This document shows, one piece after another, positions 26,662-32,426 of a DNA stretch of 64,000 nt (positions are counted from its first letter, which is position 1; each line of letters starts with the position of its first letter). A program made the position numbers and the translations under genes. The notes under the pieces are model-generated. The model did not search any database and was not told the origin of the DNA. It saw nothing but the letters and a program-made list of their open reading frames with translations. Origin of the DNA: Hormiphora californensis (Eukaryota; Animalia; Ctenophora). The stretch lies in assembly GCA_020137815.1 (NCBI GenBank), contig CM035352.1, forward strand, positions 6,076,001-6,140,000. Reading direction: 5' to 3'.

Positions 26662-29600
26662 ATGCGTTCGTGTGTCCACTGTGAAGGACAATTCTCTGAC
26701 TATGATACACTTCGAGACCATCAAGCCCAATGTACTGCCAATGGGCAGTTTTGCCCGAGTTGTCTGCAAATTATTGATCTTACTGGAGAATCGCTTGTTC
26801 AACATTTCATGGGATGCTGTCGTTCAAGGTTTGTTTTAAATATCCATTACCCTATCATATCTCTCTCTCTCTCCCTCTCTCTCTCTCTCTCTTTCTCTCT
26901 CTCTCTCTCTCTCTCTCTCTCTCTCTCTCTCTCTCTCTCAGCCAGTTTATCAATTTATTTTCTACTATAGATTCGAGTGCAACGAATGCCACTGTCAATT
27001 CACCACGGGGAGAGCAAGATCTGCACACCACTGTTCAAAAAGGCGAAGAGTTGAAGAAACAACAACACGCTCTTGCCATGGGTTTTCTACAATCATCATA
27101 ACCACTGATCAGAACGATGTTGGCGTAATTGAAGCTCTATCATCAGAACAAGCAAGAATTGTCGACATTCTTAAGTAAGTACGACCACCTTACCACTTCC
27201 CCCCCCCCCATTAATTTGTAACATAGCTTCCTGTTTCAACTGAGCGAGTCTTACACCCATCTAACACGCTATCCCTCAGTACACAAAGGGATTCATCGTA
27301 TGGCTTCAAGTTCTATCTAATTTTATCACTTACCCTTAAAAAAGGGGTGGCGGAAGATATAGACCATACACTACGCTTCTTTTCTTCAACCCCAACACCT
27401 GTTTTGGAAGGAACACACATCTCGCTAAGCTCGCACTTGAAAGATATAGAAAAAAAGGTTGATGAGTATGTACGGAAGGGGTCTGGATGGATTATCGAAG
27501 GAGTAAAAGAAATTGCAATTAATATATCTCCATATCAACCGTTATATAACGCCGGATCGTTCATTCCACTGCCCAAAGCTATTGCACGGAAAAGTTCTCT
27601 CATAAACATTCAAAATAAAGATGAGCTGTAAGTGATATACCCCCCTCTATCCCACCTCTTCAATCTGCAAATCTATTGTTAAGCTTTGAATAACACACTC
27701 AAATCCACCAGGTGTTTGGCATGGTGCTTAGCTGCGTTCCGTTGCATATCTTCAAAGACAGAGGAAGAAGTGAAACAGTTTAAAAACAAGCAGTTGACGT
27801 CCAAGTACATGGATGAGATGCAGAATGTGGACACTTCCGGAATAAGTTGGCCCATCAGCTCACATCAGATAGCTAAATTCGCTATCCAAAATGGGTAAGG
27901 ACTATGCGGGGTTATAATTGCTATCTCCTTCTCTCTAATTCGAGTGAAAGTTCTACCCCCCCCTCCAACACATAACCTATTACAGAGTGAGAATTAACGT
28001 TATTGGTTATGACGAGGGCAAGCAAATATTCTATCCTTTTTCAATGACGAAGAATGAGGGACCAATTATGACAGTTTTGCAGATAAGCAAAGAGGAACGT
28101 ACACACTATGTCCTTGTTACGAAACTCAATGCCCTTCTACGCCCATCATCCAGTCATAAATCAGTTTTCTACTGCCCAAGGTACTAGCTAGTTAACAAAT
28201 TATGTGTTAATATACATGTTTATTTTAACTTTAGAGAGACACCCATCAAATCATTACAGCTGTTTTTCACACTTCTGGGAGGAACGACTCATGACACAGC
28301 ATTTAGCGAGGTGTGAGAACCATGACCCGGCACGTATGGAATTCCCGGAAAAGGACTTTATTGCATTCGATAACTATCAAAAGATGGTTGAAATTCCTGC
28401 TTATATTGTGGCAGGTATAATTATGAATATTCCGACTCTGTTCCCTACTTTGTTCCTACTAAACCTCCTCCCTTAAATATATACCGAAACTAATTTGTAA
28501 ATCTTGTCAATCTTGTTAATCTTGTAAAACCCATCCTCCTAGACTTCGAAAGCCTAATTATGGGACCTGACCGAGAGCACAAACCCTGCGGATACGCATA
28601 TCAGCTGGTATCCAACATCGATGGGTTTAAAGGCAGGGAGGTACAAACTTATCGAGGTGATGGGCGAGTGGACGTTATAGAACACTTTCTAGCCGCAATC
28701 GAGGAGGAATACCAAGAAGTGAGAACCTTGTTTGAGGCTGACGAGGAGATAATTATGACAGCTGAAGACGAGCAGGCGTTTCAGGAAGCAAATGAATGCT
28801 GGCTTTGTGAAAAGGAACTGTATGCCTACCGTGTACGAGATCATTGTCACATGACCGGTAAATTTCTCGGAGCGGCACATAACCATTGCAACTTAAGAAG
28901 GAAGAAGCTGAAGCTGGAGCGACTCCCAGTGATATTTCACAACTTTAAGGTAGGTTGCAAAATGAATGTTTAGGTTGCAACTCTCTCAGATTATGATACA
29001 TTGGTAGTGCTTGTGTATACAACATCTGTTGCAACTTAATGCATCAATCACCACTACCTTAGGGTTACGACTCGCACCTCTTAATTCGAAAACTTGGTGA
29101 GGCAGAAGAAGATCCCAGCAAAATATTTATAATTGGAAGTATGGAAAGTTTCAAATCGATATCCACATCAAAGGTGTAGGGTGAGATTAGACTCTATCGT
29201 TTCGCAGAGAGAGAGAGAAGAGAGAGAGAGAGAGAGAGAGAGAGAGAGGAGAGAGAGAGAGAGAGAGATGAGAGAGAGAGAGAGAGAGAGAGAGAGAGAG
29301 AGAGAGAGAGAGAGAGAGAGAGAGAGAGAGAAGAGAGAGAGATAGAGAGAGGAGAGAGAGAGAGAGAGAGAGAGAGAGAGAGAGAGAGAGAGAGAGAGGA
29401 GAGAGCGAGAGAGCGATACGAGAGTAGAGAGAGAGCGAGAGAGAGAGAGAGAGAGAGAGCTAGAGAGAGAGAGAGAGAGATGATAGAGAGCTAGAGAGCG
29501 AGATCTCTATCGCGCTACTCTCTCTCTCTCTCTCTCTCTCCTCTCTCTCTCTCTCTCTCTCTCTCTCTCTCTCTCTCTCTCTCTCTCTCTCTCTCTCTCT

Positions 29601-32426
29601 CTCTCTCTCTCTCTCTCTCTCTCTCTCTCTCTCTCAGCTATTATATATTTTCAGGTTCATTGATAGTAATCAACACTTAACAGCGTCGTTGGATAACTTG
29701 ATTAAAAATCTTAAAACGAAGGGCAAAGATAGCTTTCGCTACACTAGAGCTTTCGCCGGATCAGATGAGAAGTTGGATCTCCTAACTAGAAAGGGCTTAT
29801 ATCCATATCGTTATATGGATAAGTTCTCAAAATTCTCAGAAGGTAAAAAATTATATAAACCTAACTCACATCTCTATTATCTCTCTCTCTCAGCTATATA
29901 GCTCATTCTACCTCACCCCCCCCCCCATCAGGACTCCCACCAAAGGAGGAATTTTACAATGATCTAACGGAAAAAGAGTTGAGCAACGAAGACTATGATT
30001 TTGTTCGACAAACGATGGATGAATTCGAATTGAAAACACTTGGAGACTTGCACGACCAGTAAGTTTTATACTCCATCTCTAGTACATTATTATCTCGAAC
30101 ATTTTAATCTCAATTTTTCACAATGCCTTCAACGTTATTGCAGCTACGTTGCATCGGACGTTACCCTACTAGCCGACGTGTTTGAAAGTTATAAGACACT
30201 CTGTCTAGAACATCTTACACTGGATCCCTTGCACTATCTAAGCTTACCAGCCCTTACATATGATGCTGCTTTAAAGCATACCAAAGTTGAGCTGCAAATC
30301 ATTAAGGACCCGGATATGCACCTGTTTATTGAGTCTGGTATAAGAGGTATGTAGTGCACAAACTGAAAGCAGTTGTTAAGAGAGGAGGGGGGTCAGGGTG
30401 GGGGGGGGGGGGGTGAATCAATTCTAACTTTATTCTCTATAGGTGGTGTTAGCGTCATTTCACACCGACATGCTCGTGCTAATAATCCTTTGCTTGATGA
30501 TTATAATCCCGAGGAACCAGAGACATACCTCTGGTATATAGACGCAAATGTAAATATTTCCCTCTCTCTCTCTCCTTCTGACTGTCTCTATCTGTCTATA
30601 GCTCTTCTTCCCTTTCGCTTAATTCTTATAATTTATTTATTTTCAGAATTTGTATGGTTGGAGTATGTGTCAGAGTCTACCAGTTGATGGATTTGAGTGG
30701 GTGGATACAACAGGTTGGGACCACAACACAATACAAGACAAAGAGCTCGAGGAGGGGAAAGGACTTATCTTGGAAGTGGACTTGCACTTTCCAAAGGAGC
30801 TGCATGATAAGTTTTCGGACTACCCCCTCGCTCCAACACATACTAAAATCACTGAAGATATTATTTCTCCGTTCTCCAAGTATGATCATACAAAATCAAT
30901 AGTTCCGTTAATGTTTAGATCTACACCTGTCACACCTGCATAACTTACATATATTTACAGAGCAGCCAAGGTAAAAGGAACGTGCAGTGATGGCGTTAAA
31001 CTGGCTCCAACCCTCTTTGATCGTAAAAACTATGTAGTGCATATACGGAACCTTAAGTTCTACCTAGAAGAGGGAGCAGTCATCACAAGTGTACATCGTG
31101 CGGTGACTTTCAACGAAAGCTGTTGGCTTGCCTCTTACATCAACTCTAATACGGAACAACGGAAGAAAGCACGTGATGATCTTGAGAAAGCATTTTGGAA
31201 ATTACTCAATAACGCTCTTTTTGGTAAATCAAATTACTGACCCTCCATTCCAATACCCGCCAACTTTAAATATCTCTACGTCTCTAATATCTATCTGGCT
31301 GGCTCTGTATATTATCTCTGCGTATTACATACCCTTCTAAATTTATCTTCCATGGCAGGTAAAACAATAGAAAGTGTCAGGAAACGTAACAACATAATTC
31401 TTGTGAACAACGAAGCATCAGCCATACGCATTGCCTCCAAGCCAGAGTACAAACGATTCAAAATCCTCTCAGATACTCTTGTTGCAGTTGAAACTCGAAA
31501 AACACAAATTGTTTTCGACAAGCCAATTTATGTAAGTTCCTGTCTGTCTGTCTGTCTGTCTGTTTGTCTGTCTGTCTGTCTGTCTGTCTGTCTGTCTGTC
31601 TGTCTGTCTGTCTGTCTGTCTGTCTGTCTGTCTGTCTGTCTGTCTGTCTGTCTGTCTGTCTGTCTGTCTGTCTGTCTGTCTGTCTGTCTGTCTGTCTGTC
31701 TGTCTGTCTGTCTGTCTGTCTGTCTGTCTGTCTGTCTGTCTGTCTGTCTGTCTGTCTGTCTGTCTGTCTGTCTGTCTGTCTGTCTGTCTGTCTCTCTCCC
31801 TCTCTTCCGGGATATTCTCTCACACCTTCTTTCTTTCTTTTTTTCAGATTGGTTTCACTGTACTTGATTTAAGTAAGCTGCTGATGATGGATTTCCACTA
31901 TCGCGTGATGACGAAACATTTCAACTCTCTCCTGTGCTTCACCGATACAGATTCCTTTTTGTATAAACTACACACAAAAGATCTGTATGGTACCCAAATC
32001 CCACTCCTAAGGAAGCATATGGATCTATCTAATTACCCCTCGGATCACCCACTTTTCTCTACCGATAACAAGGCCATAATAGGTCTTTTTAAGGATGAGA
32101 CTGAAGGGAAGCCCATCGAGAGTTTCATTGGATTGAGGAGTAAAATGTATTCCGTGATGGTGCAGAAAGGGAAGAGGAAAATGGCTGCTGCCGGTGTACC
32201 AAGATGCATCGCGGCTAGAGACCTTACACATCACCGATTCCTGGAAGCACTCAACTCCACCGGACCTTACGAGTTTAACATCAAGCAGACAGGAATTCGG
32301 TCCAAAACCCACACCCTGTACACTATCACCTCAACGAAACGTGCACTGTCCCGTTATGATGACAAGCGTTGGATTTTAGATGATGGAGTAACCACAAGAC
32401 CGCTTGGCCACTTTAAGAACAATTAA
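26662..32426 (+). CDS. polB: Protein-primed family B DNA polymerase (pPolB), 16 exons, 1219 aa
   Basis: Exons: 26662-26828, 26971-27174, 27280-27627, 27712-27894, 27986-28180, 28260-28414, 28543-28949, 29063-29173, 29638-29842, 29932-30058, 30144-30346, 30443-30549, 30647-30879, 30961-31223, 31359-31531, 31848-32426 (3660 nt; all introns GT-AG; phases compatible). Motifs: GSGW, NKDELCLAW, ExoI VADFES, ExoII FHNFKGYD, KGLYPY, ExoIII YVASDV, IRGG, motif A DANNLYG, motif [11 protein letters not shown], motif C TDTDS. The exon 8-9 junction is the least certain. Confidence 0.92.

What the first reader, a model, noticed from the sequence alone, without database searches (positions are those of the whole stretch)
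26662..32426. Viral protein-primed DNA polymerase gene carrying 15 spliceosomal introns
Seen: the apparent ORF debris splices into an intact 1219-aa pPolB. Introns measure 142, 105, 84, 91, 79, 128, 113, 464, 89, 85, 96, 97, 81, 135 and 316 nt, all GT-AG with compatible phases. Several interrupt catalytic motifs: VA|DFES (ExoI), HNFK|GYD (ExoII), IR|GG, DAN|NLYG (motif A) and LFG|K (motif B). Established: Polinton pPolB genes are usually described as single long ORFs. Inference: massive intron gain (about 4 per kb of CDS) in a still-mobile DNA virus or transposon. Such elements would be missed or called degenerate by ORF-based surveys.
Basis: partly seen in the sequence, partly recalled or inferred. 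Interest (0 to 1): 0.93.

Follow-up and report, generated by a model that had tools for sequence, protein, structure and literature searches.

The report
Comb-jelly virus polymerase with 15 introns
A virus-like jumping element (Polinton/Maverick), likely in a comb jelly genome, carries its DNA polymerase gene in 16 pieces separated by 15 host-style introns, several at sites shared with diverged relatives, so it likely depends on host splicing and would look broken to the intron-blind searches usually used for such viruses.

Summary
Confirmed in DNA, not in RNA. Window 25350-41923 is a Polinton/Maverick (inverted repeats, GGCTAT target duplication, integrase, ATPase, double-jelly-roll capsid), likely from a Pleurobrachia-type ctenophore. 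Its pPolB splits into 16 stop-free exons and 15 GT-AG introns with chaining phases (1219 aa). An independent spliced alignment recovers 12 of 15 introns exactly; intron 8 has two in-frame readings. Relatives at 57-82% identity keep introns 7, 14 and 15 at the same sites with other lengths. Between copies, 20 of 20 listed indels fall in introns and 20 of 33 exon changes are synonymous (21% expected). The introns are unrelated to each other, so not an introner burst. A divergent neighbour gene has one more intron; integrase, ATPase and capsid genes have none. No spliced RNA was found: three RNA runs barely cover the gene and two short contigs are unspliced. 'Still mobile' is too strong: the copy is young, but two other genes hold a stop. 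About 9 of 80 distant metagenomic pPolBs also carry introns, and this scan noted intron-split pPolBs (about 2-8 introns where counted) in at least five other genomes. Papers searched call core Maverick genes intronless. New variant of a known kind.

The parts
25344..25349 (.). left target-site duplication GGCTAT
25350..25699 (+). left terminal inverted repeat, begins AGTAGT; inner part holds 10-11 nt tandem repeats
25773..26350 (-). small gene (about 161 aa, Cys-rich, function unknown) divergent from pPolB; exon 1 26350-26041, exon 2 25948-25773
25949..26040 (-). predicted 92-nt phase-1 intron (GTAGGT ... TTTTCAG) in the small gene
   Evidence: exon 2 matches continuous homolog P0254 (E 5e-5); 5 of 6 aligned homologs stop resembling each other after the same invariant Gly
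26662..32426 (+). pPolB gene, 16 exons: 26662-26828, 26971-27174, 27280-27627, 27712-27894, 27986-28180, 28260-28414, 28543-28949, 29063-29173, 29638-29842, 29932-30058, 30144-30346, 30443-30549, 30647-30879, 30961-31223, 31359-31531, 31848-32426
26829..26970 (+). intron 1 (142 nt, phase 2, CT microsatellite); weakest homology support
27175..27279 (+). intron 2 (105 nt, phase 2)
   Evidence: indels between copies cluster here
27628..27711 (+). intron 3 (84 nt, phase 2)
27895..27985 (+). intron 4 (91 nt, phase 2)
28181..28259 (+). intron 5 (79 nt, phase 2)
28415..28542 (+). intron 6 (128 nt, phase 1) in the ExoI motif
   Evidence: gene model P0242 joins at the same site
28950..29062 (+). intron 7 (113 nt, phase 0) in the ExoII motif; site shared with relatives at 97, 64 and 57% identity
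29174..29654 (+). intron 8, GA/CT microsatellite; ends uncertain (29174-29637 phase 0, or 29176-29654 phase 2)
29843..29931 (+). intron 9 (89 nt, phase 1)
30059..30143 (+). intron 10 (85 nt, phase 2)
30347..30442 (+). intron 11 (96 nt, phase 1)
30550..30646 (+). intron 12 (97 nt, phase 0) in polymerase motif A
30880..30960 (+). intron 13 (81 nt, phase 2)
   Evidence: P0001 joins here; aligner shifted it
31224..31358 (+). intron 14 (135 nt, phase 1) at the end of motif B; site shared with P0002 (60 nt there)
31532..31847 (+). intron 15 (316 nt, phase 0, CTGT microsatellite); site shared with P0002 (84 nt there)
32979..33425 (-). small ORF (exonuclease-like by a recalled motif, no Pfam hit) with one in-frame stop near 33312
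33502..34536 (-). 344-aa single ORF, N-terminal C2H2 zinc finger (weak Pfam hit)
34588..35646 (+). retroviral-like integrase with chromodomain, single ORF
   Evidence: PF00665 E 7e-14, PF00385 E 8.5e-9; aligns over residues 1-349 in one piece
35648..36247 (+). A32-like packaging ATPase, single ORF
   Evidence: PF04665 E 0.0014, below cut-off; homologs in Polinton-type loci
36801..37253 (-). adenovirus-type cysteine protease gene, interrupted by one in-frame stop at 36981-36983
   Evidence: PF00770 E 2.6e-4 with X at the stop
37250..38548 (-). major capsid protein, double jelly roll, 432 aa, single ORF
   Evidence: model pLDDT 86.9 matches iridovirus, PBCV-1, Sputnik and mavirus capsids, E 1e-15 to 1e-12
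38545..38868 (-). 107-aa ORF resembling the small conserved Polinton protein next to the capsid gene (label recalled)
38908..39669 (-). likely minor capsid (penton) protein, single ORF
   Evidence: weak matches in two Polinton-type loci; not folded
41053..41923 (-). right terminal inverted repeat, with about 464 nt (41317-41780) absent from the left repeat
41924..41929 (.). right target-site duplication GGCTAT

Best explanation
This is a recently inserted Polinton/Maverick, likely of a ctenophore, whose polymerase gene is divided by 15 GT-AG intervals that are likely true introns, likely removed by the host's major spliceosome to give a 1219-aa protein-primed DNA polymerase. Shown: the element anatomy, the exon chain, shared intron sites in diverged relatives, and selection that keeps exons in frame while introns drift. 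Inferred: host RNA polymerase II transcribes pPolB and its divergent neighbour from the 310 nt between them, and the spliced polymerase copies the excised linear element from its inverted ends, introns included. Because the element copies DNA to DNA with no reverse-transcription step, introns gained one at a time are inherited by every daughter copy and not purged; they accumulated over the long life of this lineage in the nucleus, some before relatives diverged to 57-64% protein identity. My preferred reason for their confinement to the two left-end genes is tolerance: low-abundance early genes bear splicing that high-output capsid and packaging genes do not (inferred, untested).
For: Exon chain and consensus splice sites. 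Junction contiguity with 53 intronless homologs and blind spliced alignment, 12 of 15 exact. Database gene models of P. bachei join exons 13-16 (P0001) and 6-7 (P0242) at the same sites. P0002 (77-82% identical) has in-frame read-through inserts of 60 and 84 nt exactly at introns 14 and 15, the second starting VS and ending FQ as GTAAGT..TTTCAG would read. P0243 (64%) and P0244 (57%) run from the ExoII motif into a tail compatible with a 53- or 65-nt GT..AG intron followed by the next exon's motif in a shifted frame; 1 and 0 of 2000 shuffled tails do so. Among listed differences in other runs: 47 of 80 substitutions in introns (28-31% of the sequence), none at GT/AG, 20 of 33 exonic ones synonymous against 21% expected, none a stop, 20 of 20 indel rows in introns. 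Nearest full-length relatives P0031 and P0046 are single ORFs (FastTree support 0.91). Fifteen introns in 3660 coding nt against none in 5973 nt of eight other ORFs (p 5e-7 if uniform; the small left-end gene was not in that count).
Against: No spliced junction in three RNA runs: one 151-nt contig in X14 runs unspliced through the donor of intron 2 and one in X15 through the donor of intron 7; X14 and X20 do not cover exons 9-15. These are single low-depth contigs from environmental samples and may be DNA or pre-mRNA. The database gene models are predictions; I could not see whether transcripts back them. Intron 8 has no single clean reading, and branch-point-like YTRAY sites lie within 60 nt of the acceptor in only 9 of 15 introns. 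The variant lists are the tool's best-supported rows only (40 of 45 and 40 of 92 substitutions; 8 of 8 and 12 of 20 indel rows) from a few non-independent contigs. Hosts of P0002, P0243 and P0244 are unknown and their introns are read from protein only.
Confidence: 0.87

Rival explanations
1. The introns are real and are a selected device: splicing of the replication module protects the longest viral transcript from host surveillance of long intronless RNA, or restricts polymerase production to certain cells, acting as a latency switch.
For: Introns are confined to pPolB and its divergent neighbour; the neighbour's intron site seems kept across 26-46% identity; pPolB introns recur at different sites in unrelated lineages; in human cells introns protect long transgenes from HUSH silencing (PMC8770142, abstract). 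Compatible with the best explanation; differs only in why the introns persist.
Against: No expression or silencing data; HUSH-like surveillance was not tested for ctenophores; most pPolB relatives do without introns (53 full-length single ORFs; 60 of 80 loci without an intron call); an unchecked scan note reports an integrase intron in another Polinton.
Confidence: 0.25
2. The copy is a decaying fossil and the 15 intervals are neutral insertions that happen to have GT-AG ends.
For: Two other genes of this copy hold in-frame stops; three introns hold microsatellites; vertebrate Maverick fossils have insertions that gene finders call introns (PMC8097293, passage); unspliced RNA contigs.
Against: Inverted repeats differ at 1 of 245 aligned positions outside the tandem repeats and the target duplication is perfect, too young for 15 insertions confined to one gene; 15/15 GT..YAG; sites shared with relatives; synonymous excess.
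Confidence: 0.03
3. The introns came in one burst from an introner transposon after integration, as in dinoflagellate eupolintoviruses.
For: Introners populate 25% of viral elements in dinoflagellates, mostly acquired after integration (PMC12166617, passages); 13 of 15 introns are of similar length (79-142 nt).
Against: No similarity among the 15 introns except microsatellite; no terminal inverted repeats and boundary repeats of 0-4 nt in 14 of 15; sites shared with diverged elements, so older than this insertion. An ancient, now unrecognisable burst is not excluded.
Confidence: 0.06
4. The gene is a domesticated host copy of pPolB, or captured host cargo, that gained introns as a host gene.
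For: Nematode Mavericks carry intron-bearing cargo genes near the left repeat (10.1101/2022.07.12.499685, passage).
Against: It is the only pPolB of a complete element with young inverted repeats and a target duplication; several diverged variants exist in one run and several Polinton capsid families are annotated in P. bachei.
Confidence: 0.03

Closest known systems
Polintons/Mavericks of animals (adintoviruses, eupolintoviruses)
   Same: 16.6 kb, inverted repeats starting AGT, 6-bp target duplication, pPolB, integrase with chromodomain, ATPase, cysteine protease, double-jelly-roll capsid.
   Different: Intact vertebrate elements have 'conserved and intronless ORFs' and 'no introns were observed' (PMC8097293); core genes of a nematode Maverick are 'intronless' (10.1101/2022.07.12.499685). 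Here pPolB has 15 introns and a neighbour one.
Introner-bearing eupolintoviral elements of dinoflagellates (PMC12166617)
   Same: Polinton-type proviruses that hold intron-type sequence.
   Different: Those are repeated, transposon-derived and mostly acquired after integration; here the introns are unique sequences, site-conserved among diverged elements and under selection.
Intron-rich mirusviruses (PMC12768974)
   Same: DNA viruses with many spliceosomal introns, taken as a sign of nuclear reproduction; uneven spread among genes.
   Different: Other realm; introns enriched in virion genes and intron-rich lineages mostly lack a DNA polymerase; averages 0.04-0.65 per kb of genome. Here the pattern is reversed: polymerase intron-rich (4.1 per kb coding), virion genes intron-free.
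Adenovirus E2B polymerase transcript (recalled, not checked)
   Same: Related pPolB whose expression needs host splicing.
   Different: There a tiny leader exon joins one long ORF; the catalytic motifs are not interrupted.

Membership tests
Polinton/Maverick | [quoted passage not shown] | tested here: met
Polinton/Maverick | [quoted passage not shown] | tested here: met
   exons 3-16 collinear with full-length pPolBs; PF03175 on near-identical P0001 E 1e-5 and on relative P0046 E 3e-13
Polinton/Maverick | retroviral-like integrase | tested here: met
   PF00665 + PF00385 above cut-off
Polinton/Maverick | double-jelly-roll major capsid protein | tested here: met
Polinton/Maverick | packaging ATPase and adenovirus-type protease | tested here: met
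   weak Pfam hits below cut-off plus matches in Polinton-type loci; protease gene holds one stop in this copy
Polinton/Maverick | minor capsid (penton) protein | tested here: inconclusive
   only weak matches (E 4e-4, 7e-4); not folded
Polinton/Maverick | virions or current transposition | not testable with these tools
   no genome held; no free linear form sought
U2-type spliceosomal introns | GT..AG ends with GTRAGT-like donor and YAG acceptor | tested here: met
U2-type spliceosomal introns | removal restores a collinear reading frame | tested here: met
U2-type spliceosomal introns | excision seen in RNA | tested here: inconclusive
   almost no RNA cover; no spliced joint; two unspliced low-depth contigs
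Introners | family of mutually similar introns with terminal repeats or target duplications | tested here: not met
   (within the window only)

The most novel reading that the evidence does not exclude
A lineage of ctenophore polintoviruses has made its replication module (pPolB and its divergent neighbour) splicing-dependent while keeping integration and virion genes intron-free, as a selected control or anti-silencing device; and intron-split pPolBs, gained repeatedly in many lineages (about one in nine of the metagenomic loci sampled here), form a large hidden class that ORF-based virus surveys score as dead.
Probability: 0.3. Interest if true: 0.82.

Novelty: new variant of a known kind. 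Interest (0 to 1): 0.62.

Why it matters
Surveys of Polintons define intact elements by intronless ORFs and use prokaryotic gene callers, so a 16-exon polymerase is scored as debris; activity and diversity of these viruses in early-branching animals may be undercounted. Spliceosomal introns also place expression of the element in the host nucleus. A multi-copy family with 15 gained introns beside intronless relatives is a compact system for dating and explaining intron gain, and the sharp split between intron-rich replication genes and intron-free virion genes, the reverse of mirusviruses, is a testable pattern.

Tried and rejected
No genome is held for the window, so copy number, insertion sites and host intron norms were not measured. 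Two scans of viral contigs found no relative. The metagenome scan kept the best 80 of 274 relatives, all 36-45% identical; it did not return the ctenophore sisters or the P0003 family. Of 20 loci with an intron call I set 11 aside (L004, L005, L019, L023, L044, L053, L062, L064, L067, L070, L075) as possible in-frame insertions or weak sites. RNA runs X14, X15, X20: see evidence; parts without cover are no evidence. No exact intron-free DNA form appeared among the joints; the single joint, in X9, lies inside intron 7. The P0003 family (50-55% identical) always begins within a few codons of the intron-13 site behind residues that read like an acceptor, but no DNA was obtained and its grouping with the window is weak (0.445): lead only. 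A first guess of a 68-nt intron in the small gene was replaced by the 92-nt one after homologs were seen. Pfam, PDB sequence search and the protein atlas gave nothing for the capsid or the small gene. Scan look-ups by place and by sequence were empty. Ten literature searches found no description of spliceosomal introns in an animal Polinton pPolB or of Polintons in Pleurobrachia; the 2024 review PMC11426020 was not held, Kapitonov and Jurka 2006 and Repbase entries were not seen, and no supplements were opened, so an earlier mention is possible.
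Full report
Setting. The finding lies inside a 16.6-kb element, window 25350-41923. Its ends are inverted repeats beginning AGTAGT, flanked on both sides by GGCTAT. Outside the tandem-repeat zone the two repeats differ at 1 of 245 aligned positions (plus a 1-nt gap), but the right one holds about 464 nt that the left lacks. Inside are single ORFs for an integrase with chromodomain, an A32-like ATPase, a 432-aa protein whose model matches double-jelly-roll capsids, a likely penton, and an adenovirus-type protease. 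This is a Polinton/Maverick. The closest database protein, identical over 151 residues of the last exon, is labelled Pleurobrachia bachei, as are several capsid relatives, so the host is likely that ctenophore or a close relative; no genome was held to check.

The observation. All acceptors are YAG and 13 of 15 donors are GTA. A copy in run X9 departs from the window right at the intron-8 donor, so that exon end differs between copies.

The introns are inherited and under selection. P0002 (77-82% identical over exons 14-16) is a read-through ORF with inserts of 60 and 84 nt exactly at introns 14 and 15, against 135 and 316 nt here. P0243 and P0244 (64% and 57% over exon 7) end in tails compatible with 53- and 65-nt introns at the intron-7 site followed by the next motif out of frame; 1 and 0 of 2000 shuffles fit. 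Differences listed in other runs (mostly X9 and X10; the tool showed 40 of 45 and 40 of 92 substitutions, 8 of 8 and 12 of 20 indel rows) fall 47 of 80 in introns that make up 28-31% of the stretches, never on a GT or AG; all 20 indel rows are intronic, in seven introns; 20 of 33 exonic changes are synonymous against 21% expected, none a stop. These rows are not independent, but the direction is uniform. The introns resemble neither each other nor the rest of the window apart from microsatellite and lack terminal repeats, so they are not a recent introner family.

Gain, not retention. In a FastTree tree of the polymerase core (191 rows: window, 70 of 80 loci, 120 proteins; loci covering under 250 columns left out; midpoint root), the window groups with P0001 and P0002 (1.0); the nearest full-length relatives, P0031 and P0046, are single ORFs (clade support 0.91). 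Among 80 distant metagenomic loci, 20 had an intron call and I judge 9 credible; they sit in several places in the tree beside intronless relatives, at sites other than the window's except one (L017, intron 14). Intron gain in pPolB therefore looks recurrent. This scan's notes report intron-split pPolBs (about two to eight introns where counted) in at least five other genomes (unchecked, not counted as support). Fifteen is more than in any case I saw.

Distribution in the element. Fifteen introns in 3660 nt of pPolB against none in 5973 nt of eight other ORFs; integrase and capsid align to homologs in one piece over their length. One exception: the small gene running leftward from 26350 has a predicted 92-nt phase-1 intron; its second exon matches the C-terminus of a continuous homolog, and five of six aligned homologs lose similarity after the same invariant glycine. 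So introns are confined to the divergent pair at the left end.

What is not shown. Sixteen runs hold the stretch, two of them RNA with shares of 0.06-0.07. Laid on exons 2-8, RNA runs X14, X15 and X20 gave 2, 3 and 1 short contigs, no joints, and two contigs that cross a donor unspliced at depth 3-4; on exons 9-15, X14 and X20 covered only repeats. This is close to no test, with a slight lean against. The protease gene and one small ORF each hold an in-frame stop, so this copy is young but not a complete virus; family activity is inferred from the repeats and target duplication only.

Mechanism. Shown: anatomy, exon chain, shared sites, selection. Inferred from established Polinton biology (PMC6431247, passages): integrase insertion, host nuclear transcription, protein-primed replication from the ends. 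Inferred here: the host major spliceosome makes the polymerase mRNA; DNA-to-DNA copying passes introns to daughters and offers no reverse-transcription route to lose them; early low-abundance genes tolerate them. The alternative that they are selected (protection from silencing of long intronless RNA as for HUSH in human cells, PMC8770142, abstract seen; or a splicing switch) is open and untested.

Comparison with print. Passages seen: intact vertebrate Mavericks are intronless (PMC8097293); nematode core genes are intronless and cargo has introns (10.1101/2022.07.12.499685); a protist survey assumes endogenous viruses 'do not contain introns' (PMC10120064); dinoflagellate eupolintoviruses carry introners, mostly gained after integration (PMC12166617); cryptophyte PLVs carry group I introns (PMC12220804); mirusviruses are intron-rich, mainly in virion genes (PMC12768974). 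Passages of PMC10748475, PMC8502044, 10.64898/2026.10.13.758929, 10.1101/809541, PMC12859917 and PMC8527503 held nothing on spliceosomal introns in pPolB. Ten searches found no such report; subscription papers, Repbase and supplements were not seen and may bear on this.

Verdict. A real, selected, unusually dense set of introns in a Polinton polymerase (confidence 0.87), correcting intron 8 and the claim of present mobility. It is a new variant of a known kind, apparently undescribed in the papers searched but recurrent in other lineages. Interest 0.62.

Noticed in passing
window 25773-26350 (-): Small Cys-rich gene divergent from pPolB with one predicted 92-nt intron; five of six aligned homologs appear broken at the same Gly, suggesting an old shared intron. 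Function unknown.
   Followed up: partly
window 36981-36983 and about 33312 (-): One in-frame stop in the protease gene and one in a small exonuclease-like ORF; decay after insertion or assembly error.
   Followed up: partly
window 41317-41780: About 464 nt present in the right inverted repeat only, flanked by similar AT-rich words and with no other copy in the window.
   Followed up: partly
L001, L013, L029, L030, L035, L079, L010, L017, L055: Distant metagenomic pPolB genes with 1-5 credible GT-AG introns at other sites; profile position 838 (phase 0) is shared by L001, L013, L029, L030, L035; L017 has an intron at the same site and phase as window intron 14.
   Followed up: partly
P0003-P0006, P0008, P0009 and cluster members: A metagenomic pPolB family known only as 350-400 aa C-terminal ORFs that all begin near the intron-13 site; likely the last exon of another spliced family.
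   Followed up: partly
window 17041-20204 (-): LINE-like endonuclease plus reverse transcriptase ORF (PF14529, PF00078).
   Followed up: no
window 51514-53147, 60030-61465, 62927-63802, 9250-9726: Long near-perfect palindromic elements; the first has 814-nt arms, 100% complementary, with a 6-nt loop.
   Followed up: no
window 600-10700: Repeated exon-like units (about 100-330 nt, 67-90% alike) at several spacings, possibly a host gene with duplicated exons.
   Followed up: no
The stretch is held at 0.68-0.99 of its words by runs under two organism labels (A and B); whether these are two species, which would suggest recent transfer, was not examined.
   Followed up: no
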